A stretch of DNA of 64,000 nucleotides from Psilocybe cubensis (lineage: Eukaryota), in assembly GCA_017499595.2 (NCBI GenBank), contig CM039001.1:2790001-2854000 (forward strand), read 5' to 3'. Each line of letters starts with the position of its first letter. Position 1 is the first letter of the stretch. Position numbers and translations under genes: made by a program. The notes beneath the pieces were generated by a model that had not been told where the DNA came from, did no database searches, and saw only the letters and a program-made list of their open reading frames with translations. Of the stretch, positions 15,837-41,100 are shown one piece after another.

Positions 15837-16177
15837 TATTGAGCAGCAAGATATGCCCAGTACTACTCTACATAGACAATGTACGCTAGTGGCAGGGACT
15901 TGACTTAATATTTACTCTGTGGGTAGTGTTACTTGAGCTGTAGCTACTCAAGTGGGTTGTGAAAACTGCTTGTATTTTAAAGAGCAATAGTGTTGCCCTT
16001 ATATACACCTAAAATGTGTTACATGTGACTAGTGACGGTAACTACTGTATAGTTTTTAGTCATCTATTTAAATGTAAACTATTATTTGTAATCCACTCAT
16101 ATGACTTAGCACATGACCTAATAATCACATGGTCAAACATGAGTATAATTAACTATTTTAATAATAGTCATTCAATA
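15837..16177 (-). repeat. Copia LTR (341-bp subfamily), probably a solo LTR
   Basis: Homologous to LTRs 44144-44462 and 56315-56655. Flanked by TCAAT/CCAAT (near-TSD); no PPT or PBS adjacent. Confidence 0.85.
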
Positions 16178-19100: not shown

Positions 19101-20589
19101 CATCAAGTTAAAAATAGAACAAAGTTCAACTTAATCATGTTCTCCGCGCCTGACAATGCATGGACCAAGTTTGCACCTTCTATCAACAGCCAAAACCACA
19201 TTTGCTATATGTTTCATACCTTAAAACTACCTATAGAGATATACAATAACACATCCTGCGTATTACTGGAAGATGAAATACTCTGGGAGAAACCGTACAA
19301 ACCCAACAACAACAACAAATTTATTTTGTACCCCCATACTTAGCAACCAAGTAGCAATCACGCAAGGTACATGTTCACTGCGTATAAGCAAGTTGATAAG
19401 AAAATACACCCTGTATCTACCAGCTTCTCTAAAGATTGCCAAGTTATCCGACAAGTCACAGAGGATCCATTACTCACACTAGGGCCACTACCCACGCATC
19501 TGCTGACATTTATCCCAACTCGAAAAATTTCTACCAAACGCATGTCCAAATTGAAGATTAATTTGGGTCAATTCTTATGGCCTGAAGAAGTCAAGCTATT
19601 CCAGCATGTTATGGTACTTAACGAGGATGGAATTGCTTTTGAAGACATTGAATGTGGAACTTTAAAGGAATCATATTTTTCCTCATATATTATTCCAACT
19701 ATTGCACATTCTTTATGAGAAGAGCGAAACATTCTAATTCTGCTTGGCTTGCGTGACAAGGTTATAGAAATCATCAAGTTAAAAATGGATGCCGGAGTTT
19801 ACAAATAAAGTCAGTCATTTTATTACTCACGCTGGTTTGTAGTACTTAAAAAAAATGGCAAGCTTCAAATCATTCATGATTTGCAACCTTTTAATCAGGT
19901 AGCAATCTACAATGCAGGAACACTGCCTATAGTAGATGATTTTGTGGATAGCTTTGCTGGACGACAATGCTATATAGTGTTTGATTTGTTTTGGAGCTTT
20001 GATGCTCGCAAAATTCATCCACGAAGTTGAGATTTGACTGCTTTTATGACTTTGTTGGGACTTCTAAAAATCACATCTTTACCTACCGGATTTACAAACT
20101 CCCCAACCAAATTTCAGAAGTGCATGGTCATTGTATTACAACCGGAGATACCACATGTAGCCAATATTTTTATAGATGCCATCTATAAAAAGTGCGGGTA
20201 GATTACAAAGCATTGTAAACCCAATTAAATATTTTTTTATTCAAAATTCTCGCACTGCGTTACAACCCTCTTGAAATGTTGTGAGAAACCGGAAATATTG
20301 CAGTGTGAATAAATTAATTTGAGGTTTACAATATTTTTGGGTATTGCAATATGAAAGAATAAGCGGCTAGTTTATAATCTCAACAAATTACTGTATGAGA
20401 TGACAAGGAATCAAGAGCGTTATAAAACATTGCGAGAATTTATTGGGTTTCTCAATGATAAGGAGGATTGAATGGGATTTTGAGGCACCCAGCAGATTAT
20501 AATAGAACAAATTTATTTATTCAGTAATAAAAGTACAGGCATGGTATGTAAAGCAGGGCAGAGCAGAGCAATAATTACAGCAATGAGAG

Positions 20590-22685: not shown

Positions 22686-22989
22686 GGTGGTGGATGGTGG
22701 TGGTACGGGAAGAAAAGGGATGAAAAAAACTCCCTTCCGCATATACCGAGCGCAATGGTTATGTAATGGACACCTGAGGAGGTACAGATGTCCGCGCTAT
22801 TCCGCGCCATTGCCATAACTAGCGGGCGAAGGAGGCGCGATTGCCATCGACAGCGAGCTGTCAGAGGATAAAAATAGCCCACCGCGAATCACCATAGCCA
22901 GGAGGTAGCCACCCAAGACGCCCCAGGTATATCCGTGTGTTGAAGCTTGTGGCCAGGGCTTTCGACAACGAGAAGGGGTGTATACGCAC

Positions 22990-23318
22990 ACCAAACGAAC
23001 CCCTAGGTATTTCCGTGGGTTGAAGGGTGTGAGCACCGACTTGAGCAGCCTACAGACTACGGAATCACCGTAGTCAGCAGGCTGCCACCCAACGAATCCC
23101 CAGGTATCTCCGTGGGTTGAAGGATGTGGGCACCGACTTGAGCAGCCTACAGACTACGGAATCACCGTAGTCAGCAGGCTGCCACCCAACGAACCCCCAG
23201 GTATTTCCGTGGGTTGAAGGATGTGGGCACCGACTTGAGCAGCCTACAGACTACGGAATCACTGTAGTCAGCAGGCTGCCACCCAACGAACCCCCAGGTA
23301 TTTCTGTGGGTTGAAGGG
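22990..23318. repeat. 97-bp tandem repeat, ~3.4 copies, each full unit containing a long hairpin
   Basis: CAGCCTACAGACTACGGAATC recurs at 23046, 23143 and 23240. Each full unit contains GCAGCCT..GACTACGG-AATCA-CCGTAGTC..AGGCTGC (the third has CTGTAGTC). Confidence 0.95.
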
Positions 23319-23451
23319 TGGTAGTGGTGCGGAAGTCAACAGAGCCAACAAACGGAACCCCTACCCAAATTCAGATTCCGCCTGATGGCAATTTCAAACT
23401 CCGACACACGTGGTGATCTCAACACGTTCCTGCGTCATTGGTTCTTCTTCG

Positions 23452-23647
23452 CTACCCAGGCTCATTGCTCGGGCAGCCTCACTACCCAGGCTCATTGCTC
23501 GGGCAGTACGCGCAACCTACCCAGGCTCATTGCTAGGGTAGAACGCGAGACACTACCCAGGCTCATTGCTTAGGCAGAACTCATAAACTACCCAGGCTCA
23601 TTGCTAGGGCAGTACGCTTAAACTACCCAGGCTCATTGCCAGGGCAG
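23452..23647 (+). repeat. Array of six 25-nt hairpin units CTACCCAGGCTCATTGCYNRGGYAG with 5-11 nt variable spacers
   Basis: Units start at 23452, 23482, 23517, 23553, 23588 and 23623. Confidence 0.95.
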
Positions 23648-26600
23648 TACGCACCGATAAATTGGAATTCCTGCTCCCCTGACTATCCATAATGCCCCCC
23701 ATATATATCTTACAATATCGAGGTGTATTTGGTTGCTAATTCTACGTACAACAGACTACGCCCTCTTTTGACTGGTCCCAGGGCTCCGTCTTCCTACAAG
23801 ACGGTATAATTTACTACTCTCCCAATTGTAACTGACCAGTCCGTATCAAGACCCCAGAGCGGAATCACCCCCACCCATTCCCCGAACGTGCAGAGCCAGA
23901 TCCCACCTCTGTTAAGCATCCTGTCTGGTGGACAGACACCTTTGGGTGGATGTCCTTCATACCGCTCAACCCATCCTTTATCTCCGACCCCTTCGACACC
24001 TTTACCTGACAGCCTGAGCTGGATGTAACTCCTAGCTATAATACTCCACCCGGTCCCACTCTCTACCAGCTCGAAATTCATACTATAAAGCATTGGCGGT
24101 TTAAGGAACAATGTTTACTAGAAGCTGCGCACAAAATGAAGCTATGGTACCACGTACCAGCCAGTCAACCACCCCCGCCTTCCATCTTTAAATACGATGA
24201 GCCCTACACATCAAAAGAAGAAGCTTATCGCCAGATTAAATTGGCGCGAGATTGGTTTGCCGTATGGATGGGATTCTTTGCATATTTCGCTGCGTGTGCA
24301 AAGTATGACAAGTATTGTGCAGGAAAGATGGTGAGAGAGAAGGGCGAGTTACTACCCCGATGGTATACCAGGCTGCTCGAGGAGGTTCCGATGCTACAGC
24401 GATCCTGGTTGTACGGGCTTTTAACATCGCCAGCGTGTGTATTCTCACCCGACACTCAGCGTGCAGGGATAGTTATTCCCTGGTATGAATATGACAATCG
24501 GAGGCCCGAGATACAGTTCTTCCTGGACCAGCAGATTCCTGTTTTCTTTCCGTGGTGTGCCATCGCAGAACAGGCCATCATAAACAACCCCACCCTTTGC
24601 TATCTTGAGCCTCCTGCAAACCTTGTTTGGGATGCCCTTGAGAAGTTTCTGAACCGATTCCCCAGTGTTCCTCTCGCTGGCCTAATCCTTAGGTCTTACT
24701 TTCGATTTCATGATCGCCCGCTGCACTCCACCAAACATATATTGAGAATGGAACACAGTACGTCGTTGGTCACAAAATATATGTATGAAAAATTTGCCTC
24801 GCAAACCGACAAGGTCAAGGCGGCTATGGAGGAGAACCAGATGGAGGCCACGGTTGCAGAATTGAGGGAGATAGTAAGCCGAGCCATGGACATGGACCTC
24901 GCAGAGGCCAAGCGAGCCATAGCAAATCTCCCCACTCACGATTGGATGGACAAAGGTGACTACCACCGGAGAGGAGAGTTGTACGACCACGTCTCAATAT
25001 TCTTGGAGAAACACGAGAGAAACCAGCGCTTTATCATTGCGACTGAGACCGAGGACGCAAAGATCAAAAGGCTTCAAAGAGAGGAGGCCCTCCCGGGGTA
25101 CAACACATTGGTCTATAGGTGGAAAAGTGTCACGACGCCGGGGGGGAAGAAATTATACATGCGAGTTTGCCTCCTTCAATCAAAGCACGAGAGACTGTTC
25201 GCAAAGGTGCCTCCCTCTCAACGAACATACAATGCAGTCTCAAACGAGTGGGACATTTTTGATGAAGTGGATTTGCCACGAAAATATCTGCAATTTGTGG
25301 ACCCCCCTCCTAGGAAGGACGGTTATATCTACGACTATCCTATCCAAGCCGCCCGCATCAATCCCCAGTCCATCATCCCCGACAACGATGTACCCCGTGT
25401 GGAATCCGTTCCCGTCATCCCAGAACCCTGTGTAGACTCTTCCTCGGGTGGTGTGACTTCCTCTCATGAAACTCAGTACGAAACATTCCCCATGGACACG
25501 GAGGAATTTCAGGAGGGGCCTTCCCAGCCTCTGGTACATCGTCCAGAGCCGGGCCCCTCCACCATGGATACCGACACTGATGAAGCTTCGAAAATCCACG
25601 ATTACGATTGGGACACTGCCGACCTCATCTCCAACTTGCGATACAGCTATGGATTCGTAGCCTCTGTAGTCCCAAAGAAGGAGGATAAGACACCGGAAGG
25701 CTGGAAACACGCCTGTCAACACTTTGGGTTTTGTCAGGGTTTCTCCAGTTTCCCCTCTTTATCTTCACAGAATTATCTTACCCTTTCATTATCTTATCAA
25801 TTATCTGATTAGATAGTTTATTTCTTTCATCACAGCCTTTTTGCTCCACTTCTTTCTAGTAAATTCTATATGATTCCTAGTCTTACTCATCCTTTTTCTA
25901 TATGATGTCACTTTTATTCTTTAACCTTCCTTTATGATGTAATGTAGGGAATATTCTAGAATAGCTGTAGAGTATAAATACTGGACTTGTAGGTAGCTGT
26001 AGCTTCAGCTTCAATCTCTTAGGATATCCACTATCATTGGTGTGATCTCTTAGAACCATTGAATCTCTCTCACTCTCTTATTCTCTCTTTGCTCTCTTAC
26101 TCTCCCTCTGCTCTCTCTCTCTCTTGCTTAATCTTTGTTGGTGGCCTTGTCACACTGATTATAGTGTTGCCCTGACAGAAGATTGAAGCTCTCTCAAGAC
26201 AACTCCACCATCTCTCTTTCAACACCAAACTCTTCACCTCTTCAACCTCTTCAACACCATTACCTCAACCTTCTTCCTCCACTTCCAACCCACCAACCTC
26301 TTCATCAACCTCTTCACCAATCTTCTTACCACTCTCTACATCTCCACCAATCTTCAACATCCTCCTCAAGACCTTTCCTCAAGACCTTTGGCTCATCATC
26401 TTTCCTACTCTCTGTTGTGTGCTGTGTGTGAACTTAGTAGATAGGGATACCAACTGTTGGGGCAGACACAGTCCTACTAGTGTTCTGTTTTTGGTGGTCT
26501 AGGAAATATCCAGTAACCCTGTGATCCTAGGTTTAGAGCCCTGAGTGGTGTGACAACTGGGTATCCAGTAGATAGATATTTTTTTTTTTTAGAATACTTA

Positions 26601-26673
26601 GTATAGTTTCAAGGGCACTTTCAGTAGATAGCTTCTCCCACACACACATCAGAGAGCCTACCTACCCCTACCC

Positions 26674-27783
26674 ATGGACATGGACCCCTCCCAATTGCCT
26701 CCCACCACTCCTTCTGTGGAAGAGCTCATGCATCAGGTCCAGCTCCTTACCCAAGAGTTGAATTTTCTTAGACAGCAGCAGCAGTCATTATCCACTCCAC
26801 CACACCCTCAGCAACCAGTCAGTCAGTCACCATCACCACCACCACCACCACCACCTGCTGCTCTAGATATTCACTCTTTCCCTACCCCTCATGTTGCCCC
26901 TTCCTGTTCACACTCTGCCATTAAAGTCTCACCTCCAGATCCATTTGATGGTTCTATGGAGAAGGCAGAAAACTTCCTCAGTCAGCTTAAATTATATTTC
27001 TATGGGAAAGGGATTACAGATGACTTTCAGAAAGTTATTTGTGCTCTATCTCATATGAAAGGAGGTACTGCTGGGAAGTGGGCATATGAGAAGACTAAAG
27101 TAATAGACAATGCTCAGTCCCAAGAAGGTCTTTGGGCTGACTTTGTTTATGAATTTAGGGAAGTGTTTGCAGATCCAGACCCCTCCAACACAGCTAAGCA
27201 TAAAATGCACATGCTCAAGCAAGGCAGACAGACTGCTGATGAGTATGTTGCTAGCTTCAGGGCTCTGATCTCAGATACTGGGTATAATGATGCTGCTTTG
27301 GTAGACCAATTCAAGGCTGGGCTTAATGAAAATCTCAGGAATGCAGTCTACTATGTTCCTGATATGCCCAAAACCTTGGATGGATGGATTAAATGGAGTA
27401 CTAGGCTAGATAGGCAGTGGAGACAGAGTGAGGCCTTTACCAAGTCTCTTTCCTCCTCCTCTTCTTCTCCCTTCCTTAAAGCCCCAACTCCCAAGGCTGT
27501 TCCTAAGCCTACTCCAAATCCTCCAGTCTTTTCCAACAGCAGCTCAAGGACCTTTGGTGCTCAGGCAAAGCAACCAGATGTAGTTCCCATGGAGGTTGAC
27601 TCTGGATGGAAGTCAGTTAGGCCAATTGTTTGCTTCAAGTGCAGAAAGCCTGGTCATAAGGCTGTAAACTGCAGGTCATCAGTTAACATCAATGCTATGA
27701 CCCATGAAGAACTGGCTGACTACTTTGGGAAATTAATCTTGGAAGGCAAGGAGCAGAAAGATGAGGAAAAGAAAAATTTTTAG
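26674..27783 (+). CDS. gag: Retrotransposon Gag with CCHC zinc knuckle
   Basis: PDPFDG, LKQGRQTADEYVASFR, VPMEVD and CFKCRKPGHKAVNC. Confidence 0.95.
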   Translation: MDMDPSQLPPTTPSVEELMHQVQLLTQELNFLRQQQQSLSTPPHPQQPVSQSPSPPPPPPPAALDIHSFPTPHVAPSCSHSAIKVSPPDPFDGSMEKAENFLSQLKLYFYGKGITDDFQKVICALSHMKGGTAGKWAYEKTKVIDNAQSQEGLWADFVYEFREVFADPDPSNTAKHKMHMLKQGRQTADEYVASFRALISDTGYNDAALVDQFKAGLNENLRNAVYYVPDMPKTLDGWIKWSTRLDRQWRQSEAFTKSLSSSSSSPFLKAPTPKAVPKPTPNPPVFSNSSSRTFGAQAKQPDVVPMEVDSGWKSVRPIVCFKCRKPGHKAVNCRSSVNINAMTHEELADYFGKLILEGKEQKDEEKKNF

Positions 27784-30700
27784 AAGCACCATTGGTGAAA
27801 GACATGTCCCAATGGAATAGATTTAATGTACTAGAAAATGAAATTGACAGACTTGATCCTCAGTCTTCAGATTCTGGTGCAGAAATCATGTCTTCTTCTT
27901 CCTCTCTTTCTACCTTCCCTGAAAAGATCTACATCCTCAACCATAATCCTAAAACCTCTACCCATTTGTCTGTCATCTTAAAGACAATGGACACAGAGAA
28001 AAGGTTATCTGTTGATGCTTTGCTTGATTCTGGAGCTACTGGCCTCTTTCTGCATTCTGGTTTTGTGAAGTATCATAATCTCAACACAAGGAAACTTCCT
28101 AGAGCCATTCCAGTCTATAATGTTGATGGTACTCTCAACAAGAGTGGCTCTATCCATGAGGAAGTAGACTTAATTATGGTACACAAAAACCATACAGAAA
28201 GGGCCACCTTTGCTGTTTGTGACTTGGGAGACAAATCTGCTATCATTGGACATACTTGGCTTTGGCACCATAATCCAGATGTTGATTGGAAGACAGGGGA
28301 TGTCCAGTTTATTAGATGTCCCTCTGACTGCCAAATGGAAGCCAAAAGAGCCAGAAGAAAGAGGCAGAGAATAGCTGCAGTCAAAAGGAGGAAACTCCCT
28401 CAATTTGATGAAGAAGAAGATGATTCTATTGAAGATTCTTCTGATTCTGAGATTGAGCCTGAGGATAGAATTTTTATCTCATACCTTCATCCTCAGAAGC
28501 AGTCTATTAATGCTACTTCTACTATGTCTCAAAGATTAGCAGAAGAGTCTCATCAGCAAGCTGATTCCCCTAAGAAAACCTTTGAAGAAACTGTTCCTAA
28601 GCACTATCATCAGTTTAAAGGTGTTTTTTCAAAGGAATCTTTTGATAGGCTACCAGACAGAAAGCCTTGGGATCATGCTATTGAGCTAAAACCTGGTTCT
28701 GAACCTTACAGATCCAAGATTTATCCTCTTTCTCCCAATGAACAAAAGGAACTTGATGCCTTTTTAGAGGAAAATCTGAAGTCTGGCAGGATTAGACCCT
28801 CCAAGTCACCTATGGCCTCCCCTGTATTCTTTGTCAAGAAGAAGGATGGATCTCTTAGGCTTGTCCAGGACTATAGGAAACTGAATGAAATGACCATCAA
28901 GAACTCCTACCCCCTTCCATTGATTTCTGACATCATCACCAAACTCAGCAAAGCCAAATACTTCACCAAACTTGATGTTAGGTGGGGATTTAACAATGTC
29001 AGAATCAAAAAGGGAGATGAATGGAAAGCAGCCTTTAGAACCAATAGAGGGCTGTTTGAACCATTGGTCATGTTCTTTGGTTTAACCAATAGTCCTGCTA
29101 CCTTCCAAACTATGATGAATGATATCTTTATTGAGCTCATTGATGGAAATGTTGTCATTGTCTACATGGATGACATTTTAATTTTCACTGAGACTCTTGA
29201 TCATCATAGAGAGGTAGTCAAGCAAGTTCTGCAAATCCTAGAACAGAACAAACTCTACCTTAAAGCAGAGAAATGTGAATTTGAAAAGGAAAAGATTGAA
29301 TATCTTGGACTAATCATTTCACAAGGCAGGATTGAGATGGATCCTGTCAAGGTAGAGGGAGTTTCTAAATGGCCTGAACCTGAAAATGTCAAGGATGTCC
29401 AATCATTCTTGGGATTTGTTAATTTTTATAGAAGGTTCATAAAGGATTTTGCAGACATTGCTAAGCCCCTTCATGAATTGACAAAGAAAGGAACAGTCTG
29501 GAGATGGAGTCTTAGACAGCAGGAAGCCTTTGACCAGTTAAAGAAGAAAGTCACTTCTTCACCTGTCTTGATTTTCCCTGATGATAACAAGCCATATAAA
29601 GTTGAAGCAGACAGTTCAGATTATGCTACTGGGGCTGTTTTATCTCAGGAAGGATCAGATGGGAAATGGCATCCTGTAGCCTTTATGTCTAAGAGTCTAT
29701 CTGAAGTAGAAAGGAATTATGAGATCCATGACAAAGAGATGCTGGCTATTATCAGAGCACTAGATGAATGGAGACATTATCTTGAAGGAACCCAACATTC
29801 CTTTGAGATTTGGACAGACCACAAAAACTTAGAGTACTTTATGGTTGCCCAAAAGCTCAGCAGAAGGCAAGCCAGATGGTCACTCTTCCTGTCCAGATTT
29901 GATTTTACTCTTCATCATAGGCCTGGTAAAAGATCTCTTAAGCCAGATGCTTTGTCTAGGAGACCAGATCATAAAAAGGGAGAGAATGATAACCAAAATG
30001 TAGTTCTCCTCAAACCTTCCTACTTTAAAATCCAGGCTCTCAAGCAGGGTCATGCTACCATTACTGGTGCAGAAAATGATCTTCTTAAGAAGATTAGAGA
30101 AGCTAAGGAGATGGATGAAAAGGTGGTCAAGGCAGTTCAGGAGCTCAAGAAATCTTCTACCAAGAAGATTGAAGGACAGGAATGGTCAGAAGAACAAGGC
30201 CTTATTCTCTACAGGGGGAAGGTGTATGTTCCCAAGGACAAAGATCTTAGAAGAAAGATTGTGGAACTGCACCATGATGCCTTCATTGCTGGACATCCAG
30301 GGAAATGGAAGACAATTGAGCTAGTCTCTAGGAATTATTGGTGGCCAGGAATGTCACATTTTATTGCAGCCTATATCAGAGGTTGTGATAGATGCAACAG
30401 AACCAAAACCTTTCCAGCCAAACCTCTTGGCCTTTTAATTCCTACTGAGATTCCCTCTGATGTCTGGCAATGCATCTCTGTGGACTTTATTATGGGGTTA
30501 CCAGAATGTCAAGGGTATAATGCCATTATGGTGGTTGTGGATAGACTTAGTAAAATGATCCACATTATCCCTACCACAGATGAAGTCACTTCTGAAGGGA
30601 CAGCCAGACTATACAGAGATTATGTCTGGAAACACCATGGCTTACCCATTAAAATTCTGTGTGATAGAGGTCCACAGTTTGTCTCAAGGTTTATGAAAGA

Positions 30701-31661
30701 ACTCAACTCAATACTTGGTATCCAGACAGCTTCATCTACAGCCTACCATCCCCAAACTGATGGTCAGACTGAAAGAGTTAACCAAGAAATTGAGCAGTAT
30801 CTTAGACTCTTTATAAACCATAGACAAGATGATTGGGTTGAATGGTTAGCTCTAGCTGAATTCTCTTATAACAATAGAGTTCAGGCTTCAACCAGGCAGA
30901 CACCATTCATGCTCAATAATGGCAGACATCCCAGAATGGGCACTGAACCCCTTAGAGATAGTAAAATGGACACTGTGGATACCTTTGTGAAAAATATGGA
31001 AGAAGCCAGGAAAGAAGCAGAGTCTGCACTTAGAAAAGCTGCTGATGATATGGCTAAATTCTATAATAGACACAGAGGTACTCCAACTCAGTACAAAGTT
31101 GGGGATTTGGTATGGTTGGATGGCAAGGACCTCAAAACTGATAGGCCCTCCAAGAAATTGGATGATAAAAGATATGGGCCTTACAAAATTACCAAAGTTA
31201 TTAGCCCTAATGCCTATGAGCTTAAGCTGCCATCTACCATGAAAATCCATCCAGTGTTCAATGTGGTTAAACTTCTACCTTATCACCCAGATATTGTAGG
31301 AAGAAAGCCTCCTTCTAGACCACCTCCTATCATTCAAGGAGAAAATCCTGAGTGGGAAGTTGAATTTATCAAGGACAGCAGACTTTTTAGAAACAAACTT
31401 CAATATTTGGTCAAGTGGAAGAACTACCCTAATGAAGAATGCACTTGGGAGCCTGCAGAGCATTTGAAAAATGCTTCTAAGGCTATCAAGGACTTCCATG
31501 CCAAACATCCTTCAGCACCTAGAAGGATTTCTGCTGTGACCTTTGATAGACTTTCTTTCACTCCTATTATTAACTTTACTGAACCTCCTCCTCTTCTTAA
31601 ACCCTCTAAACTAACCCATCCATGTGCACATTGTGGAAAATGTGCCTTAGAGAGGGGGTGA
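27780..31661 (+). CDS. pol: Pol (protease-RT-RNase H-integrase-chromodomain), in the -1 frame relative to gag
   Basis: LLDSGAT, YMDDIL, EADSSDYATG, HHDAFIAGHPG/CDRC, DRGPQF, QTDGQTERVN and chromodomain WEVEFI..YLVKWKNY..TWEP. Slippery A-AAT-TTT lies at the gag end. Confidence 0.95.
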   Translation, partial: LEAPLVKDMSQWNRFNVLENEIDRLDPQSSDSGAEIMSSSSSLSTFPEKIYILNHNPKTSTHLSVILKTMDTEKRLSVDALLDSGATGLFLHSGFVKYHNLNTRKLPRAIPVYNVDGTLNKSGSIHEEVDLIMVHKNHTERATFAVCDLGDKSAIIGHTWLWHHNPDVDWKTGDVQFIRCPSDCQMEAKRARRKRQRIAAVKRRKLPQFDEEEDDSIEDSSDSEIEPEDRIFISYLHPQKQSINATSTMSQRLAEESHQQADSPKKTFEETVPKHYHQFKGVFSKESFDRLPDRKPWDHAIELKPGSEPYRSKIYPLSPNEQKELDAFLEENLKSGRIRPSKSPMASPVFFVKKKDGSLRLVQDYRKLNEMTIKNSYPLPLISDIITKLSKAKYFTKLDVRWGFNNVRIKKGDEWKAAFRTNRGLFEPLVMFFGLTNSPATFQTMMNDIFIELIDGNVVIVYMDDILIFTETLDHHREVVKQVLQILEQNKLYLKAEKCEFEKEKIEYLGLIISQGRIEMDPVKVEGVSKWPEPENVKDVQSFLGFVNFYRRFIKDFADIAKPLHELTKKGTVWRWSLRQQEAFDQLKKKVTSSPVLIFPDDNKPYKVEADSSDYATGAVLSQEGSDGKWHPVAFMSKSLSEVERNYEIHDKEMLAIIRALDEWRHYLEGTQHSFEIWTDHKNLEYFMVAQKLSRRQARWSLFLSRFDFTLHHRPGKRSLKPDALSRRPDHKKGENDNQNVVLLKPSYFKIQALKQGHATITGAENDLLKKIREAKEMDEKVVKAVQELKKSSTKKIEGQEWSEEQGLILYRGKVYVPKDKDLRRKIVELHHDAFIAGHPGKWKTIELVSRNYWWPGMSHFIAAYIRGCDRCNRTKTFPAKPLGLLIPTEIPSDVWQCISVDFIMGLPECQGYNAIMVVVDRLSKMIHIIPTTDEVTSEGTARLYRDYVWKHHGLPIKILCDRGPQFVSRFMKELNSILGIQTASSTAYHPQTDGQTERVNQEIEQYLRLFINHRQDDWVEWLALAEFSYNNRVQASTRQTPFMLNNGRHPRMGTEPLRDSKMDTVDTFVKNMEEARKEAESALRKAADDMAKFYNRHRGTPTQYKVGDLVWLDGKDLKTDRPSKKLDDKRYGPYKITKVISPNAYELKLPSTMKIHPVFNVVKLLPYHPDIVGRKPPSRPPPIIQGENPEWEVEFIKDSRLFRNKLQYLVKWKNYPNEECTWEPAEHLKNASKAIKDFHAKHPSAPRRISAVTFDRLSFTPIINFTEPPPLLKPSKLTHPCAHCGKCALERG

Positions 31662-33513
31662 TGTCAGGGTTTCTCCAGTTTCCCCTCTTTATCTTCACAG
31701 AATTATCTTACCCTTTCATTATCTTATCAATTATCTGATTAGATAGTTTATTTCTTTCATCACAGCCTTTTTGCTCCACTTCTTTCTAGTAAATTCTATA
31801 TGATTCCTAGTCTTACTCATCCTTTTTCTATATGATGTCACTTTTATTCTTTAACCTTCCTTTATGATGTAATGTAGGGAATATTCTAGAATAGCTGTAG
31901 AGTATAAATACTGGACTTGTAGGTAGCTGTAGCTTCAGCTTCAATCTCTTAGGATATCCACTATCATTGGTGTGATCTCTTAGAACCATTGAATCTCTCT
32001 CACTCTCTTATTCTCTCTTTGCTCTCTTACTCTCCCTCTGCTCTCTCTCTCTCTTGCTTAATCTTTGTTGGTGGCCTTGTCACACTGATTATAGTGTTGC
32101 CCTGACAGGTTTAGAAAGGATGGGGCAGAACAGTTTGTCTCAAACACGGATCGTCAACTCATCTGTCAGTTTCATGACGGTTTGATGGGGTCAACTGACC
32201 GTCCGCTCCCTCAAGACATTCACGATCTCCACCCGCAAAATTACCTATCCCTTCAAGTTTTAGGGAATCTCAGCCTTATCCATCGGCCCATCCCAAATCT
32301 ATTTGTTTTCGCTCATCACGACATACGTGCACCTCAGGAAAAGTCCGACAGAATGTCTGCTGATTGGAGTATTGGAGTCGAAACCCCAGAGGCTGCTTTA
32401 TATGTCTTACGAGTCTTCCAGTCCCATCCTGGGCATACAGTTGTCAGTGTGGCACACAGACTTTTGTCCAAAGGAGTGCAGTTTCGAACTCTTGTCGGGC
32501 GTAAAAATGTGGTTCAGGTGCATCAACCCTACAAGGAAGTTATCTTTTACCGCAAAGTCAGCTACAAGTTTACCAACGACGACTATGAGTCCTCAATGCT
32601 GGCCTGTCGGCAGATACTGGACCAACAACGCGGTCGTGCAGCGCTACTCATGGGTGGAATAGTAGGACGAATCGCCAAAGAGTATCTGAGCACAGAGTCT
32701 GTTCTCCAGGGCCCATCAGTAGAATTGCTGAGAAATGGACGCGGATATGTCGCTAATCCAGAGGCCGAGTTGCTGGCTTACTGCAATGACGGGCTTACAG
32801 AACACGATATTGCGATTATTATCGGGTCGTATTCTCTCATGACGGGTAAGTGTTCACTACATTTAACTGATTGCTCTATTTAATGTCGTTTTTAGATTTT
32901 AAAAATCAGGTCGGAGTCAAGTCTTGGTTTCCTCCCCCGGCGGTATGGAATGAAATCGACAAGAATGGGATAGGATGGCTGGAATGGACTGAACGCAACG
33001 AGTACTGGTACCAGACTAGGCTGGAATTAATTTGAAATGGCAAAGCGCAACCTTTAACGCTTCAAGACTGGAAGAGCCTTCTCAAAAATAAGCCAGTCCG
33101 TATTCTAAGGGAATCGGTGCGAGCTCAATCAGCGGCATTTGTCCATGAACATATCCCCATAACCAGGAATCCTCGTAGATAGGTAGCACATTTTTCTTGT
33201 TTCTTCATTCACGGATCTACACCACTACTCACAGTGTATTTTTGCCTTTGTACATACTACAAAACAAATTTTATGTATACTATCTATATTTCTTCGTACA
33301 GACTATTGGTCAGATATCATGTATACCACGGAAAAAATTGTTTGGACCTGCATCGAAACATGTGTGAATCAATTCTGAGCCCAAAAAACATAAAAAAAAC
33401 ATGAGATTGCTTACAGTAAGCTGGTTAGGCCAATCAAAACTCCGCTAAGTTTTGAACTCCGACACCGCGCCCTATCACACGTGAGGTTGATGTCTGCACT
33501 CTCCTTATTTGCT

Positions 33514-33810
33514 CTACCCAGGCTCATTGCTTGGGTCAGAACGAATTGGTGGCTCGCTATCCAGGCTCATTGCCGGGATAAGAGCTTCCTATCCACTGTC
33601 CAGGCTTATTGCTAGGACAAGGATTTTCTACCCCCTATCCAGGCTCATTGCTGGGATAAGGGTGTCGTTCGCCTGCCCAGGCTCATTGCTTGGGCAAGGA
33701 TATCCCCCCTATCCAGGCTCATTGCTGGGATAAGGGTATCGTTACTCTGCCCAGGCTCATTGCTTGGGCAAGGATTTTCTACTCCCTATCCAGGCTCATT
33801 GCATGGATAG
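33514..33810 (+). repeat. Array of eight hairpin units around AGGCTCATTGC with covarying stems
   Basis: Stems ACCC/GGGT, TATCC/GGATA, TGTCC/GGACA, TATCC/GGATA, TGCCC/GGGCA, TATCC/GGATA, TGCCC/GGGCA and CTATCC/GGATAG. One head reads AGGCTTATTGC. Confidence 0.95.
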
Positions 33811-33833
33811 TTGTACTTCAGCAGGCCGTAATT

Positions 33834-36800
33834 ATGTCCAACGAAAAAAGACCCTGCTTAGGGTGCCATAAACTCTTTGTACCAGGTCGCTCCTTGAAGC
33901 AGCATACCAACAAATGTAAAAAATATCCTGCTGCAATGAGCAAGGTCCTGAAGGGGTTCCAGGAAAACTTCAGCAGGCAGAATCAGAACAGTAATGTTGC
34001 CAGTGGTTCTTCGCACCAGGCAACCCTGAATAATGAGCCCGGGCCTATGGACGTTGATGTCCATCATGAGTATCTCGATGTGGATATGGTACCACCTCCA
34101 ATGCCCCCTGCGCCTCCACCTAAATCACCAACACCACCACCACATCCCCCGACACCACCACCTCCCATTGAATGGCCCAGAGGACTTCCTCCACGCGTTA
34201 TTAGATTGCCACAGCGCTTCCGAGACGAGGTCCCACCCAAACCTCCTCTAATTATACCACCAGTCGTGGAGGAGGAACCACCTCAGCCTCAGGAACCTCC
34301 ATCTGTGGAGAGTCTGTATCGAACACCAATGAATGGCTATGGGATATTTTGAGAGTATACCTATAGTCCCCCTTCTATTACTCCTGATGAACATTTCACA
34401 CTGTCATCAGTGTCCGATTCTCCAAATATTGCCAAAGACCCAGCCGACTCTTTGAGAAAGGCGTCAGAGGGAACACCAATGGCCCTACCTTCGGATTGGT
34501 TCTTGGATTCTGAGCCAAAAGACAACAAGAGCTTGCTATTCAAAAATCGTTCTACTCAACTTATCATGTCTTGGTTTTACAACGGCCACGGTACTAAATC
34601 CTACGCTGATACCGACAAATTGATTCACCAAGTCGTACTGGACCCGGATTTTGACCCCAAGGACTTTGATTCCTCCTTTTCTACTGCTCAAGAGGCAGCA
34701 CGTCTGGACGAAATCTCCACCCAAAAAAATTCTACAGATTCTACTTTGTCAGAAGTGTGTTGACCGGAAGCTGGGTGGATCAAGGGCAGCTTTTCAATAC
34801 CAGTGCCATGCGACGGTTTCATATTCGATTCGGAAGAGGAGGCTCCTCAATTTGTTGTTGAAAACGTCATGTATCAAAAACCTCTAGAAGTTATCAAACA
34901 GGCCTTTGCAGAATGCACCTCTGAGACGTATACGACCATACCGTACAGAGAATTTTGGCGTCCCTCACCTGACGAACCACCCAAACGCTTATTCTCAGAG
35001 TCCTACGTGGCGGACATTTTCAATGAAGAGTATGAAAAGATCAAGTCAGAGCCACGCATAGGTCCCCACAGACACCTGGAGCCCTTTGTCGTTGGTATCG
35101 GGATTTTTTCAGATTCTACCCACCTGACCAGTTTTGGCGATGCTTCTATATGGCCGATCCTTATGTATATCCTCAACCAGTCAAAATACACCAGAGGGAA
35201 ACCTAAAGAATTTGCTGCGCACCATATTGCGTATATCCCTAAAGTAAGTTTGTATTGACTGGCATGTACTATTCATATTAACGTTTGGGTCATAGCTCAC
35301 AGACACTTTTCAAGATTGGCATCAGCGACAGTTTGGCAAAGCTGCGACATCTGAAATGCTCACCCATATGAGATGCGAGGTCAATACAGGCGTCTGGGGG
35401 CTATTACTTGATGAGGATGTCAAACGAGCGTATGCTGAAGGAGAGGCCGTAGAACTGGCCGACAGAGTATGTCGAGCTATGTATCTCTGTTTTATTTTTA
35501 GTTCAAATGACTACCCCGAAAAGTAAGTCAACATCTACTCGTTATTTCGTTTGATAACTAATGTACAAGCAGAATGCTGCAGTCCTGCTGCAAGTGTCGC
35601 GGCACTTGCTTGTGTCCACGTTGTTTAATTCAAACTATGAATGTCCCAAAGGTTGGATCAAAGATGGATATGCGAAACCGGCTCAAGCTAGCTCGCGTTG
35701 ACAGCAAAATTCGTCAATTTGACATCGAAACTGCCCATAAAGCATTGTTCTTGGGGAAAAAGATTAACAGCAAGGCGGTTAATGGCTTGCTGCAACAGAC
35801 CTCTGCTTTTCCAATTCGGGTATATTTTTATTTCCTCATATCTACGTATTTTGTCTAAGAATATTACATAGAACGCTTTTTCCAAGGCTTTATTTGAATA
35901 TGGCTTCAACTTTTATCGGATGTTTACTGCTAACCGTGTCGAGATACGCAAGCTGCTGTGTGAGGACAGGGAGTTACTGGAGCCCACTCCTCCTGATTTA
36001 CATTATCACATCTCATCAGACGTGCGTTGAAAGTTAGATATACTACCCTGGATGTCACAAAACCAAAACGATCCGGCGACAAGGGTAAGCCAGATTTTTC
36101 GCTTGTTTTTATATACTCAATGTTGTATTTAGGACTTTATGCTTCGTCTCAAAACTCACCTTTATGCCCGCTTATCAGGGGTAAACGAATTCAGTGATAG
36201 CATTGGTACCCATGAGCGACTCCAAATCACAATATTCGGTGACCGAATTTACGAACATCAGGTTCTACGCATCAACTATACTTCGTATGATATGTGTCGA
36301 ATACAAGATACCTTGAAGCCAAACTCTTCCCGATGTGACATCATGGTACTTGCTAGCAACAAAGGTGCAGATCAGCAGGTTCATCTTTATTGGTATGCCC
36401 GTATCATTGGAATCTACCACGCCAATGTGGTAATATCTACCCCTGATGATTACTACCGTGCCTCCAAGCACAAAGTGGATTTTCTTCATGTCCGATGGCT
36501 GGGTGTTTGTGAAGATTGCCATTACGGTTGGAAATATAGAAGGCTTCCACAGTTGGTGTTTGGTGATATCAATGACTCTGCGTCGTTTGGTTTTGTGGAC
36601 CCATCCCTCGTAATTCGTGCAACCCATTTGATTCCTCGCTTCATTCTTGGAAAAATACCGACTCTCGGCCTATCTGTAGCTTATAGAAGCAAAGAAAATA
36701 ATGAAGGGGAAGAATGGGAGAGATATTATGTCAATTTGTGAGTACATTTAGTCACTTCTTACCCTTTACTAATTTTTTACAGTTTTGTGGATCGCGACAT

Positions 36801-37143
36801 GGTCATGCTGTACAGAGGGGGTGGAGTTGGCCACGCTAGCACGCGAGCCGCTACCAATTCTCTTAGGCAAGACCGACGTGCAGATGACATTGCCTCTCGC
36901 AAAAAACGCCGCGAGGCACATGAAGCACCCGATCCTGATCTGGAACCAGATGGGGCCTCAGACCAGGAGCAAGACGCTCAGGACCAGGCTAAAGTGGCAC
37001 CTGAAAACAGCGCCGATTCTGATGACAATGAAGATGACAGCGACCAGCATACCGATTCTGAAGAGGAGGAGGAGGAGGAGGAGGAAAGCGACGAGGATGA
37101 GGACCGGGGTGACCTCGATGAACTTGGGTTCGCTGAATACTAA
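33834..37143 (+). pseudogene. Plavaka-family transposase (disrupted, probable internal deletion near 35930)
   Basis: N-terminal CxxC..H..C finger, then GWIKGSFSIPVP, YQKPLEVIK, FSDSTHLTSFGDASIWP, NQSKYTR, AHHIAYIP, DYPEK, CPRC, RINYTSYD, YWYARIIGIYH, FGFVDP and an acidic tail. Contains introns and CGA>TGA-type stops. Confidence 0.85.
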
Positions 37144-37363
37144 CTGTAGCTTTATGTGAGTCTGTCGTTGATTCTCTTGTACCTCTACTAACACCTTTTT
37201 AGATGTATCCTTGTCTTGGCGAGTAATACACAATACTTTTCTTGATTTTAGCGTGATTCGGTAAGAAAATGTATTGATATTTAACTGAAATTTTATTGTA
37301 ACATCCCTATACATCGCTGTACGCCCTTTGGGCTCTACTCTCTCATTGTGCAACTACGTATGT

Positions 37364-37475
37364 GTGCCTTACCCCCCTCACATCAACCCTCATACACCAC
37401 CTTAGCTGCAGCCCGACACGTGCCTTACCCCCCTCACATCAACCCTCATACACCACCTTAGCTGCAGCCCGACAC
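37364..37475. repeat. Perfect 56-bp direct tandem duplication
   Basis: GTGCCTTACCCCCCTCACATCAACCCTCATACACCACCTTAGCTGCAGCCCGACAC occurs twice in tandem. Confidence 0.95.
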
Positions 37476-37802
37476 GATACCGCCCTTATATTTCAGCGAT
37501 AAGGACAGCACCAAGCATCGCCCCCAACCCAGTTCTGCAGTCTATTTCGACCTGGACGTGCCTGGCGCGCGCCACGCGTGTGCTGCGTATGCGCGCGCCA
37601 CGCGTTTGATGCGTATTGCGCGCGCCACGCATGTGATGCGTATGCGCGCGCCACGCGTGTGCGTGTTCGTCCAGATACAAAGAGGCGTTGATACGGGGAG
37701 GGAGGGGTATACAAATCTCACATGGATGTGTTTTGAAAAATAAAACTTGATTTCATTGTACACGCGTCACGGTAAACTCATAGTGCCTGTCGAACGGGCC
37801 CT

Positions 37803-38189
37803 TTATTCCATCATCTCAACGTCCTGATCATCCCCCTCCCCATCGCGCATCTCAACGTCGCTGTCTTCGACGGTCCCCGAGTCCTTGATACGATTTTCGA
37901 CTGCGACAACCTGTTCCTCCCGCTCTCGAATTTCGCCGTGGGTCGAAACGACGGGTTCGGTGTCGACTCGCCCGGTCATGGGCTCTTCTACGCTGACAAC
38001 GATCTCGACCTTGTTGTCGGTATCAACGTTGACGCCGATTTTTGCGTGCCCGTTGCGGCCATCAACGGCAACGTTGAGCCTGAGGCCGTCGCGATCGATC
38101 GCGAGGCCGAATTGTACTCCTTGGAGTGCAAAAAAAAATTAACAGTGAGTACTTACTTTGAATATTGAAGACTCACCTTGCTCATCCAT
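37803..38189 (-). CDS. Transposon cargo gene 4: small spliced 109-aa acidic protein of unknown function
   Basis: Exon 38189-38177 (MDEQG), intron GTGAGT..AAG 38176-38120, exon 38119-37803 (VQFGLAIDRDGLRLNVAVDG...DDQDVEMME*). No stops. The AAG acceptor is a less common type. Confidence 0.55.
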
Positions 38190-41100
38190 TTGTCGTCTTC
38201 CGTTAACTCTTGTTATGCCATTAGAATGCAGTGGTGACTCGCTGGCGCACTGTGGCAGGTTTGGTGGTGGTGGTGGTGGTGGTGGTAGTTGAAAAAAAGA
38301 AGCGCGCCGCCATCGTTGATGACTGCGGCGCGCTTTTCCACGCCCGTTTTGGTCATCGTCGTCGACGATGAGCTCGATATCGACGATTTTTTAACGGATT
38401 AGCGTGTTTATTTTATGTATACGTATAGAAATACAACGCTTACCGTGTGTGAAACTTCAAATAAGCGATCGTATGTTATATTTAATACACACGCCGGGGC
38501 AAGACATTTGGCCCCTATGTCGACCGGTTATGTAATGGCCGGTCAACCGGACTTGTCGTAAACATACAAAAATTCTTACTTGATTTTGCAGGGTAAAACA
38601 AATAATTGTTTGGATATTGTAAAGCTAATAAAAATATTACTTAACATTGTAAACCGGGCCCCAAAATTTGGGTGCATTTGTAAGACAAAAAATTTATTGT
38701 ATTGGTTTACATAGCATTGTAATCTACTGCCTATTTAGTTGATGTGATTTACCAATCAAGTGTCCAAAATCTCAGTACTTGAATGCAGATGGAGAACCGG
38801 AAACTATACCCAAGAATTCTGGAATTTAAAAATTTATTTGGGAACATGCACAAGATGTACACCAAGTAATGCATTGGATTAAAGAATCTGGCGCTACATT
38901 TGCAGCAAACAAATCACAAATATGTCTTCCAGAAGTACTCATTGTGGGACAGACATGTAACGCGCAAGGGAGATCTCCAGACAAAGCAAAAATTAATAAA
39001 ATTATGGAATAGCCTCCACTTACCACCGAACAGGAAGTACAAAGGTTTTTGGGACTAGCAGGCACAATGCATATATGGATACCCAATTATTCTACTTTGG
39101 TAAAACCCTTATCAGAATTATATCACAAAGACAAAGAATTTATCTGGGATGAAAGGCGTCAAAATGCATTTGACACCATTAAGAATAAAATCACAAATGC
39201 TCTGATACTTATGCTAATTGACTACTGCTCAGAACGACCTGTCATTCTAGCAGTAGATTCTGGCAAATATGCAGTAGGAATGATTTTATATTAGATTGAT
39301 GAAGATGGTAGAAAACGACCAGCTCAATTTGGGTCCATACCAATGAGTGAACCATACCAATGAGTGAAAGGGAATCAAGATACTCACAACCAAAGCTAGA
39401 ATTATTTGGACTATATTGGGCCCTGCAACACTGGAGAATTTACTTAATAGATGTCAAAAACTTGAAGGTAGAGGTAGGTACAAAATACATCAAGAGAATA
39501 TTAAATAATCCAGATTTACAACCCAATGCAGCTATAAATAGATGGATCCAGGGAATATTGTTCTTTGCTTTTGAATTGGTACATGTATCTGCGCAGAATC
39601 ACAAAGGGCCAGATGCATTATCCCGAAGACCCTTAGCAGAAGAAGAAATAGCAGAATCAGATGATGATAGTTGGCTAGATGCAATCACACTCAATACAGA
39701 CCAATGGAATAACAGACATCAAACAGGTTTTGGCTTCTAGAACCGCACAAAATACTCTTTTAGAAAATATTAAACATTTTCTACAAACATTAGAAACACC
39801 CATATTCATGGATAGTCAGAAGAAAAGAAAATTTTTAAGCAAAGCAACTCAATTTTTTATTTAGAATAAACGGATGTACAAGTGCAATGATACTTGATCT
39901 CCATTATTAGTAATTCAGCGACTTGAATCCAAAATTGCTATACTCCGTCGAACACATGAGGAACTAGGACATAAAGGGGTCACCTCTGTATATGAACTAC
40001 TTTGACATTATTTCTACTGGCCACACATGCAAGCAGATGTACACCATCATGTATGTACCTGTCATGAATGCCAAGTACGGAGTTTGAAAAGAACAGAAAT
40101 TCCACTTACCATATCTACTCCAACAAAATTATTCTCAAAAATATATCTTGATATAATGCACATGCCAACCTCACATGACAAGAAAGTCTGTATTATTGCA
40201 GCCCAAGATGACCTATCAGGAGTATGCAAAGCTTGAGCACTAGAAAACAAGACAGCAGAAGAATTAAAACTCTTCTTTTGGGAACAGATATATTGTCAAT
40301 ATGGAGCACCTGAACATGTAATCACGGATAATGGAGGAGAAATAAAAGGTGCATTTGCAATATTACTCAAACGTCTAAAGATTCTACAAATATGCATTAC
40401 TCCTTACAACCATCATGCTAATGGAGTAGTAGAACGTGGTCACTTTGTGTTACAAGAAGCTATCATAAAGTCATGCTAAACTACTAGAACACCTATCACT
40501 CACTGGCCTGAGAAGTTGTCAGAAGCCTTATTCACTGATAGGGTTACAATTAGTTGTATAATAGGATTTTCCCCATATCAACTTCTGCATAGAACCGACC
40601 CCTTACTTTCCTTAGATTTGGCCAAAGCCACTTTTATGGTTGAAGGATTCTGTCCCCGCATGTCAATCAGTCGTTTACTAGCCATGCAAATGCAGCAACT
40701 CAGCAAACACCCAAAAGACATAGAACAGGCCTCAAACATCTTCAAAAAAGCTTGCTTTGCTTCTAAAGAGCAATTTGAAAAGCGGTTTATACACCAACTA
40801 TCCAGAAATAAATATAAAATTGGAGAATTAGTATTGGTTTGGAATATAGCCATTGAAATGAGTCATAATTGCAAACATAAAGTACAATACTTAGGGCCAT
40901 TTATTATCAAACGGCATCATGAAAACGGGTACTATATTGTTAGCAAATTAGATGGAGTGGAGTATAAGGCCAAGGTGGCACCTGCACGGCTCTTACCCTA
41001 TATCACCAGGGATCATCAATTCATGAAAGAGAATCCTACATATCGTAATAATTGCGAATCTGATACATCAGGCACCACTACTTCTGAATCTAAAAGTGAC

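What the first reader, a model, noticed from the sequence alone, without database searches (positions are those of the whole stretch)
22990..33834. Candidate transposon-internal RNA-hairpin regulon: three genes of one Plavaka element each led by arrays of UNAUU-pentaloop hairpins
Seen: six hairpins before cargo gene 2 (23452-23647) and eight before the transposase (33514-33810) share the head AGGC-TCATT-GC. The divergent gene 1 is preceded by 97-bp repeats whose hairpin reads GACTACGG-TGATT-CCGTAGTC in its own sense. All three arrays therefore present a U(C/U/G)AUU pentaloop on the coding strand, upstream of the ATG. Inference: multivalent binding sites for an element-encoded or host RNA-binding factor that coordinates translation, export, anti-silencing or processing. 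I know of no such system described for Plavaka/CACTA elements. The link to the 97-bp repeat is the weakest part.
Basis: partly seen in the sequence, partly recalled or inferred. Interest (0 to 1): 0.88.

Follow-up and report, generated by a model that had tools for sequence, protein, structure and literature searches.

The report
Hairpin repeat arrays inside Plavaka transposon
Two of the three genes of a mushroom DNA transposon are each preceded by a tandem array of the same small hairpin-capable repeat, which looks like a shared control cassette, but whether it is read as DNA or as RNA could not be tested here.

Summary
The two arrays are real: 6 units at 23452-23647 and 8 at 33514-33810. All lie on the + strand, and the motif occurs nowhere else in the 64 kb. 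Each unit is a 25-nt quasi-palindrome with an invariant 13-mer, CCAGGCTCATTGC. Two lower-stem pairs show compensatory changes, while the spacers have diverged.

Both arrays sit 45-49 nt downstream of the same exact 11-mer and just upstream of a gene. One gene is an unknown 911-aa protein and the other is the Plavaka transposase.

- The element is a PlavakaB transposon at 20180-38744, at roughly 10 copies per genome.
- This copy is dead: three nonsense codons, an 853-bp deletion and a nested Ty3/gypsy retrotransposon at 25733-32107.
- The 97-bp repeat before gene 1 (DUF6698) carries a different 41-nt palindrome and does not fit the hairpin model, so the three-gene regulon shrinks to two genes.

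No RNA data were available. Sense-strand folding is strong for array B and weak for array A.

My odds: multimerised promoter-proximal DNA sites 0.45, 5'-leader RNA hairpins 0.35, no function about 0.12.

It is a new variant of a known kind (regulatory repeats inside transposons), of moderate interest.

The parts
20180..20236 (+). Left terminal inverted repeat of the PlavakaB element. It starts CATC(T)A and contains GTAGATTACAA.
   Evidence: Reads of other copies diverge before 20185 (543 loose ends, run X13). Aligns with the right end. Terminus type as described in PMC12730594.
20596..22685 (-). Gene 1: DUF6698-family protein, several exons.
   Evidence: tblastn of P0157 and P0158, whose clusters carry precomputed PF20414. 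Weak Pfam DUF6698 hit, E 0.0019, below the cut-off.
22989..23317 (.). 97-bp tandem repeat, 3.4 units. Each unit holds a 41-nt near-perfect palindrome (23045-23085, 23142-23182, 23239-23279). A different family from the arrays.
   Evidence: Not matched by hairpin model R1.
23397..23407 (+). Exact 11-mer AACTCCGACAC, 45 nt before array A, followed by CACGTG and a CT-rich tract.
   Evidence: Only two exact copies in the window, at matching offsets from the arrays.
23452..23647 (+). Array A: six hairpin-capable 25-nt units, period about 35.
23755..25732 (+). Gene X, 5' part (unknown 911-aa protein family). In-frame TGA at 23833. Cut by the LTR retrotransposon.
   Evidence: tblastn of the intact paralogue P0007. 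A joint skipping 25726-32108 is seen in other copies.
25733..32107 (+). Nested Ty3/gypsy chromovirus retrotransposon. Not part of the Plavaka gene set. Target-site duplication GGTTT.
   Evidence: LTRs 453 bp, 99.6% identical. gag, RT, RNase H, integrase and chromodomain hits. Ends and duplication read.
32108..33182 (+). Gene X, 3' part, with an intron at about 32845-32894 and a stop at 33180.
   Evidence: tblastn of P0007.
33455..33465 (+). Second exact copy of AACTCCGACAC, 49 nt before array B, followed by CACGTG and a CT-rich tract.
33514..33810 (+). Array B: eight hairpin-capable 25-nt units, period about 38. Two unit types alternate.
33834..37143 (+). Plavaka transposase gene, defective. 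In-frame TGA at 34350 and 34761, and an 853-bp deletion at 35929/35930. The first 34 codons look like a C2HC zinc finger.
   Evidence: Pfam PF18759. Compared with the intact 1234-aa paralogue P0005. Deletion seen. Finger.
38688..38744 (-). Right terminal inverted repeat, ending ...TGATG.

Best explanation
The two arrays are copies of one cis-regulatory cassette that puts the two + strand genes of a PlavakaB transposon (gene X and the transposase) under common control.

Each cassette has four parts: an exact 11-mer (AACTCCGACAC), a CACGTG box, a CT-rich tract, and then 6-8 tandem units.

Each unit carries an invariant 13-bp core, CCAGGCTCATTGC, set in a quasi-palindrome.

I take the units to be multimerised binding sites for one sequence-specific factor, either a host transcription factor or an element protein such as the transposase's N-terminal zinc finger. 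On this reading the factor binds duplex DNA at the promoter.

Shown: the arrays, the conserved core against diverged spacers, the shared upstream motif, the position before both genes, and confinement to the element.

Inferred: that a protein binds, that it acts on DNA, and that the effect is transcriptional. On this reading the arm-to-arm compensatory changes come from template switching within quasi-palindromes during replication, not from selection on RNA pairing.
For: - The core (alignment columns 7-19) is 99% identical over all 14 units. Spacers are 34% identical between the arrays and 53-56% within an array. So the core is constrained, or homogenised, independently of its surroundings.
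- The invariant block is asymmetric on the hairpin: six bases of the 5' arm, the loop, and two bases of the 3' arm. Columns 20-22 of the 3' arm vary on one side only. Pair 9-21 is unpaired in 8 of 13 distinct units, and pair 10-20 is G.U in 10 of 13. This pattern fits a linear recognition sequence.
- Neither strand is favoured. Array A has z -1.6 on the sense strand and -3.9 on the antisense. Array B has -6.1 and -5.6. Per-unit energies are mixed.
- The exact 11-mer occurs only twice in the window, at matching offsets of 45 and 49 nt before the arrays.
- All 10 full-length annotated transposase models start 126 nt after array B, which leaves room for a start site downstream of the array.
- Array depth in whole-genome reads (356-399) equals that of neighbouring element bins (366-403), against 32 in the flank. 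The motif therefore travels with the element, at about 10 copies.
- From general knowledge, not checked here: promoter repeats inside transposons are common.
Against: - Binding to duplex DNA does not predict the compensatory changes. Pair 6-24 is C-G in 9 and U-A in 4 of 13 distinct units, and never unpaired. Pair 5-25 is A-U in 5, G-C in 3 and A.C in 5. All four combinations occur, and 0 of 500 shuffles reach the observed covariation score.
- The invariant central TCATT is asymmetric, which is odd for a symmetric dimer site.
- Array B ends only 24 nt before an in-frame ATG. The 34 codons after that ATG carry a C-x2-C-x11-H-x3-C pattern and fold as strand-strand-helix in a single-sequence model (pLDDT 66). 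If that ATG is the true start, most of the array is probably transcribed.
- No binding protein is identified. Gene X has no recognisable fold.
Confidence: 0.45

Rival explanations
1. RNA reading, which is the first reader's idea reduced to two genes. Transcription starts near the CT-rich tract, so the arrays form the 5' leaders of the gene X and transposase mRNAs.

Each unit folds into a 6-bp lower stem, a 1x1 internal loop with a conserved A, a 3-bp upper stem (G.U, G-C, C-G) and a UCAUU pentaloop.

The 6-8 hairpins next to the AUG either slow ribosome scanning or bind a common RNA-binding factor that couples expression of the two genes.
For: - There are compensatory changes in two lower-stem pairs, needing at least three double events given the unit subfamilies defined by their spacers.
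- The loop and closing pairs are conserved.
- All eight units of array B fold as predicted on the sense strand, with z -6.1.
- Both arrays are in sense orientation and abut the start codons.
- A promoter-like module (11-mer, CACGTG, CT tract) lies upstream of the arrays, not downstream.
- The first ATG, 24 nt after array B, opens a probable zinc finger.
- The + strand of the arrays has 1 ATG in 498 nt, against 15 on the - strand.
Against: - There is no transcript evidence of any kind.
- Array A is weak on the sense strand: z -1.6, units at -6.6 to -13.4 kcal/mol, and A.C mismatches in 5 of 6 units that would be U.G on the other strand.
- The upper-stem partners vary without compensation.
- The units are related by tandem duplication, so independent events are few.
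- No Rfam family matches.
- Annotated gene models start downstream of the first ATG.
Confidence: 0.35
2. No dedicated function. A quasi-palindromic minisatellite arose once in the element, was duplicated together with its upstream sequence to a second site, and is kept uniform by unequal exchange or gene conversion. Arm symmetry is maintained by template-switch repair.
For: - Unit number varies between copies. Reads join 23569 to 23643 in 10 reads of X13.
- Other variable tandem repeats sit in the same element, at 37364-37476 and 37565-37661.
- The copy studied is dead.
Against: - Homogenisation would not spare the spacers. Yet the core is 99% identical while spacers between the arrays are 34% identical.
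- The same cassette sits before two genes, at matching distances from the 11-mer.
- The persistent mismatch at pair 9-21 and the G.T at pair 10-20 argue against a simple drive toward perfect palindromes.
Confidence: 0.12
3. Internal transposition enhancer or operator. The arrays bind the transposase, or an accessory protein, to help assemble the transposition complex and at the same time repress the element's own genes, as the internal activation sequence of phage Mu does.
For: - The transposase has a probable N-terminal zinc finger.
- The arrays lie inside the element and next to its promoters.
Against: - The arrays share no clear sequence with the terminal repeats, whose repeated motif is GTTTACAA-like.
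- They lie 3.3 and 4.9 kb from the ends.
Confidence: 0.05

Closest known systems
PlavakaB DNA transposons of Agaricomycetes (Kojima 2025, PMC12730594; passages and section 3.2.3 read, supplements not seen)
   Same: Plavaka transposase domain, termini of the CATCA..TGATG type, multi-copy in an agaric, and extra genes carried beside the transposase.
   Different: The passages I read describe no internal repeat arrays. 'hairpin', 'subterminal' and 'tandem repeat' each have 0 occurrences in the main text. This element carries a DUF6698 gene and an unknown 911-aa gene, not a TET/JBP gene.
En/Spm (CACTA) subterminal TnpA-binding repeats that overlap the element's promoter (recalled, not checked in a paper here)
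   Same: Multimerised short sites in a related transposon superfamily that link an element-encoded protein to control of the element's own promoter.
   Different: Those repeats lie within a few hundred bp of the ends, in both orientations, and are not hairpin units. Here the arrays lie 3.3 and 4.9 kb from the ends, all in one orientation, and each unit is a quasi-palindrome.
Mouse LINE-1 5'UTR monomer arrays (recalled)
   Same: Tandem units directly upstream of the first ORF that could be both promoter and 5' leader.
   Different: L1 monomers are about 200 bp, are not hairpins, and belong to a retrotransposon.
Protein-binding leader hairpins such as the iron-responsive element or the MS2/PP7 operators (recalled)
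   Same: A lower stem free to covary, a conserved unpaired base, a short upper stem and a conserved loop.
   Different: The natural examples are single or few, not arrays of 6-8. Neither transcription nor binding is shown here. No Rfam match.

Membership tests
PlavakaB transposon | Plavaka transposase domain (PF18759) | tested here: met
   E 3.8e-11, 43.2 bits against a cut-off of 26.3, on 34764-35255. 99-100% identity to Psilocybe cubensis proteins that carry PF18759.
PlavakaB transposon | Termini 5'-CATCA..TGATG-3' with terminal inverted repeats | tested here: met
   The right end reads ...TGATG at 38744. The left end reads CATCTA at 20180. Reads of other copies show CATC directly followed by the sequence from 20185. 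The definition comes from PMC12730594.
PlavakaB transposon | Target-site duplication of 2 or 3 bp | tested here: not met
   The flanks are ..TGC on the left and TGA.. on the right, so 2 of 3 bases agree. This is an old, mutated copy, so the result is weak evidence against membership.
PlavakaB transposon | Multiple copies with sharp boundaries | tested here: met
   Depth is 32 in the flank and about 300-440 across the element. There are 543 loose ends at 20185. 11 annotated paralogues.
Protein-binding RNA hairpin in a 5' leader | Lies within the transcribed 5'UTR | not testable with these tools
Protein-binding RNA hairpin in a 5' leader | Stem kept by compensatory changes, loop conserved | tested here: met
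   Two of 10 pairs show double changes in 7 cells. 83% of cells are paired, against 23-46% when the partners are slid by 1-3 columns. 0 of 500 shuffles reach the observed covariation score. Caveat: the units are related by duplication.
Protein-binding RNA hairpin in a 5' leader | Folding favoured on the sense strand | tested here: inconclusive
   Array B has z -6.1 on the sense strand and -5.6 on the antisense. Array A has -1.6 and -3.9.
CACTA-type subterminal repeats | Short motifs clustered within a few hundred bp of both ends, in both orientations | tested here: not met
   The arrays lie 3272 and 4934 nt from the ends, and all 14 units are on one strand. The feature itself is recalled, not read in a paper here.
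Same hairpin family for the 97-bp repeat (third arm of the proposed regulon) | Matches the sequence and structure model of the 14 units | tested here: not met
   Model R1 scores the 14 units at 40.5-45.3 bits. No match at E up to 10 falls within 22989-23317. The repeat holds a 41-nt palindrome with different stems.
Ty3/gypsy chromovirus (nested element 25733-32107) | LTRs, 5-bp target duplication, gag and pol with RT, RNase H, integrase and chromodomain | tested here: met
   Other copies of the Plavaka element lack it: the joint is seen in 170 reads of X13 and in contigs of X1 and X10.

The most novel reading that the evidence does not exclude
The arrays are transcribed 5' leaders. Their 6-8 identical UCAUU hairpins form a multivalent platform for one RNA-binding protein, element-encoded or from the host, that couples translation or stability of the transposase mRNA and the accessory-gene mRNA. 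That would be an RNA-level regulon inside a eukaryotic cut-and-paste transposon, for which I know of no precedent.
Probability: 0.25. Interest if true: 0.8.

Novelty: new variant of a known kind. Interest (0 to 1): 0.45.

Why it matters
Plavaka elements are abundant in mushroom genomes, but only their transposase and termini have been described. How their several genes are controlled is unknown.

A shared cassette with a strictly conserved core before two of the three genes offers a concrete handle on coordinated expression or self-restraint of a multi-gene DNA transposon.

If the hairpins act as RNA, this would be an unusual natural example of a multivalent leader-hairpin array. If they act as DNA, it adds a promoter-repeat design to the CACTA-related clade.

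Either way, the report corrects the gene map of the locus: a nested retrotransposon, a dead copy, and gene models that probably lack a zinc finger.

Tried and rejected
- **Whole genome:** none is held for this window. Genome-wide counts of the motif were therefore replaced by read depth.
- **RNA evidence:** no RNA holder was listed. Two runs guessed to be RNA, with the same species label, held next to none of the sampled words.
- **Metagenome scan** for two adjacent cores: 4 loci. All are unrelated tandem repeats without the hairpin arms. No fungal genome collection was available, so homologous elements in other species could not be examined.
- **Earlier findings of this scan:** nothing for this genome or sequence, and nothing relevant by words.
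- **Rfam at E up to 1 over 20000-39000:** only a chance IRES_n-myc row inside the retrotransposon.
- **Gene X as a DNA- or RNA-binding protein:**
  - The protein atlas gave weak leads to tyrosine-recombinase-like families (NDC10_II, Phage_integrase, DUF3435) at 0.89-0.91.
  - An AlphaFold model (pLDDT 75.7) had no Foldseek match at E up to 0.001. The best VIA-align Z was 5.3, to generic helical bundles. The lead is not confirmed. Single domains were not folded separately.
  - Pfam gave no hit for gene X or for its Galerina and Cyclocybe relatives in the local copy.
- **Start codon of gene X:** the first three residues of P0007 do not map next to the ORF in the window, and the open frame from 23740 has no ATG. 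The distance from array A to the true start therefore remains uncertain.
- **Target-site duplication of the Plavaka element:** not found.
- **Bacterial promoter/terminator scan**: not meaningful for a fungus.
- **Papers:**
  - 'Plavaka' gave 20 papers. I read passages only of PMC12730594.
  - 'DUF6698' gave 0 papers.
  - 'Psilocybe cubensis' together with two transposon terms gave 0 papers.
  - A five-term search on hairpin arrays and transposons listed nothing relevant among 15 titles.
  - I therefore found no description of such arrays, within these searches only.
  - The supplements of PMC12730594 (Figure S2, Data S1, with Plavaka consensus sequences) were closed. They could show whether other families carry the arrays.
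Full report
**The observation.** The core AGGCTCATTGC (up to one mismatch) occurs 14 times in the 64-kb window. Six copies lie at 23458-23639 and eight at 33520-33802. All are on the + strand and none lies elsewhere. 1.6 matches were expected, and 0 of 100 shuffles reached 14.

Tandem Repeats Finder reports the two arrays and the 97-bp repeat at 22989-23317.

Every unit can pair 8-10 of 10 positions around a T(C/T)ATT loop. Unit energies are -6.6 to -18.5 kcal/mol on the + strand and -9.8 to -16.6 on the - strand. So the arrays and their hairpin potential are real.

**What the locus is.** The interval is not a simple string of transposon genes.

- Positions 25733-32107 are a Ty3/gypsy chromovirus. 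Its 453-bp LTRs are 99.6% identical, it has a GGTTT target duplication, and it encodes gag, RT, RNase H, integrase and a chromodomain.
Other copies lack it: a joint from 25726 to 32108 is seen in 170 reads of run X13 and in contigs of X1 and X10.
- The host element runs from 20180 to 38744. Reads from other copies diverge before 20185 (543 loose ends). The ends read CATC(T)A...TGATG with about 57-nt inverted repeats. That matches the PlavakaB termini described in PMC12730594 (passages read).
- A 2-3-bp target duplication was not found: the flanks are TGC and TGA.
- Depth in whole-genome reads is 32 in the left flank and about 300-440 over the element, so roughly ten copies.

**The three element genes.**

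- **Gene 1** is a DUF6698 protein on the - strand, 22685 down to 20596.
- **Gene X** is an unknown protein of 911 aa in the intact paralogue P0007. It maps to 23755-25732 plus 32108-33182. Its family has 237 cluster representatives at E up to 0.001.
- **The Plavaka transposase** starts at 33834 or 33936 and ends at 37143. The intact paralogue P0005 has 1234 aa.

The closest named proteins are from Psilocybe cubensis.

This copy is dead. Arginine codons in the paralogues read TGA at 23833, 34350 and 34761. In addition, 853 bp present in other copies are missing at 35929/35930.

**Anatomy of the arrays.**

- The 25-nt units are aligned. Columns 7-19 (CCAGGCTCATTGC) are 99% identical over all pairs. 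Columns 20-27 are 62% identical. Spacers are 53-56% identical within an array and 34% between arrays.
- On the ten-pair stem, 83% of cells pair, against 23-46% when the 3' partners are slid by 1-3 columns.
- Pair 6-24 is C-G in 9 and U-A in 4 of the 13 distinct units, and is never unpaired. Pair 5-25 is A-U in 5, G-C in 3 and A.C in 5. 0 of 500 shuffles reach the observed covariation score.
- All four combinations of these two pairs exist. If subfamilies are defined by their spacers, at least three double changes are needed. That last step is my inference.
- In contrast, pair 9-21 is unpaired in 8 of 13 units, and pair 10-20 is G.U in 10 of 13. The changes are on the 3' side only.
- Whole-array folds: array B has z -6.1 on the sense strand and -5.6 on the antisense. 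Array A has z -1.6 on the sense strand and -3.9 on the antisense.

**Setting of the arrays.**

- The exact 11-mer AACTCCGACAC occurs only twice in the window, 45 nt before array A and 49 nt before array B. In both places it is followed by CACGTG and a CT-rich tract. The cassette is therefore larger than the array.
- Array B ends 24 nt before an in-frame ATG at 33834. The next 34 codons carry a C-x2-C-x11-H-x3-C pattern. They give a sub-threshold zf_C2HC_14 hit (E 0.014). A single-sequence model folds them as strand-strand-helix, with mean pLDDT 66.
- Against this, all 10 full-length annotated paralogue models begin at the second ATG (33936 in the window), and an eleventh model is a C-terminal fragment.
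- For gene X, the open frame from 23740 has no ATG. The only ATG after array A is at 23692, and the first residues of P0007 do not map there. Its start is unresolved.
- Array depth (356-399) equals that of adjacent element bins (366-403). Model R1 finds only the 14 units in the window. So the motif is not scattered independently of the element, as far as these data reach.

**The third arm of the proposed regulon.**

- The 97-bp repeat carries a 41-nt near-perfect palindrome, -25.8 kcal/mol on the + strand and -32.5 on the - strand. It occurs at 23045, 23142 and 23239.
- Its stems are unrelated to the array units, and only the loop resembles them (TGATT on the - strand against TCATT).
- Model R1 does not match it at E up to 10.
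- It lies 304 nt from the annotated gene 1 start.
- I therefore treat it as a separate repeat of the divergent intergenic region.

**Interpretation.** The data show a conserved, duplicated cassette before two element genes. They do not show at which level it acts.

- *For a folded single strand:* the compensatory changes, the conserved apical part with a conserved unpaired A, the sense orientation, the position next to the start codons, and the probable zinc-finger start just after array B.
- *For a linear DNA site:* the asymmetric 13-mer, the uncompensated variation of the upper 3' arm, the lack of strand preference (array A favours the antisense strand), the downstream annotated starts, and the general rule (recalled) that repeats before transposon genes are promoter elements.
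- Compensatory changes in a DNA quasi-palindrome can also arise by template switching without selection. That is established knowledge of quasi-palindrome mutagenesis, recalled and not tested here.

My odds are 0.45 for multimerised promoter-proximal DNA sites, 0.35 for 5'-leader RNA hairpins, 0.12 for no function and 0.05 for a transposition enhancer or operator.

**Comparison and novelty.**

- The element passes three of four PlavakaB tests. The target duplication was not found.
- The arrays are not CACTA-type subterminal repeats. They lie 3.3 and 4.9 kb from the ends and all in one orientation.
- In function they most resemble promoter or leader repeats of other transposons, or, on the RNA reading, protein-binding leader hairpins. 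No Rfam family matches.
- I found no description of such arrays in Plavaka within the searches.

I rate the finding a new variant of a known kind, with interest 0.45.

Noticed in passing
window 25733-32107: The nested Ty3/gypsy chromovirus has no CpG at all: 0 observed against 268 expected from its base composition in 6383 bp. Yet its LTRs are 99.6% identical, and its read depth is about 45-55 times that of the flank. The surrounding Plavaka sequence has CpG observed/expected of 0.6-1.0. This looks like a young, abundant family that is entirely CpG-free.
   Followed up: partly
window 23833, 34350, 34761 and 35929/35930: This Plavaka copy is dead. Three codons that are arginine in the paralogues read TGA, and 853 bp present in other copies are missing. 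Most differences from other copies are transitions. In run X1, A>G was seen at 124 places and T>C at 135.
   Followed up: partly
window 33834-33935: All 10 full-length public gene models of this transposase family start at the second ATG. They omit 34 in-frame codons that look like a C2HC zinc finger. The models may be truncated at the N-terminus.
   Followed up: partly
window 37364-37476 and 37565-37661: An exact 56-bp duplication and a GC-rich 26-bp repeat (3.7 units) lie downstream of the transposase stop. Copy number varies among copies in whole-genome reads, as shown by joints that skip 56 or go back 52-97.
   Followed up: no
window 23045-23279: Each 97-bp unit holds a 41-nt near-perfect palindrome whose centre reads CGG-N5-CCG. 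From memory, that is the layout of binding sites for fungal zinc-cluster transcription factors. Not tested.
   Followed up: no
window 23397-23407 and 33455-33465: The shared 11-mer contains CCGACAC. From memory, this is the start of the 12-bp TnpA-binding motif of maize En/Spm. A 7-letter match could be chance. Not tested.
   Followed up: no
window 44143-50378, and 14574-16178 / 47241-48403 / 55564-56733: Direct repeats of 320 bp, 100% identical and 5916 bp apart, suggest a second LTR-type element. Further direct and inverted repeat relatives at 83-91% identity lie around it. Not annotated.
   Followed up: no
window 14001-18000 and 54001-64000: AT-rich blocks (GC 0.30-0.36) with CpG observed/expected of 0.11-0.32 flank the transposon-rich centre. 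They may be old, mutated repeats.
   Followed up: no
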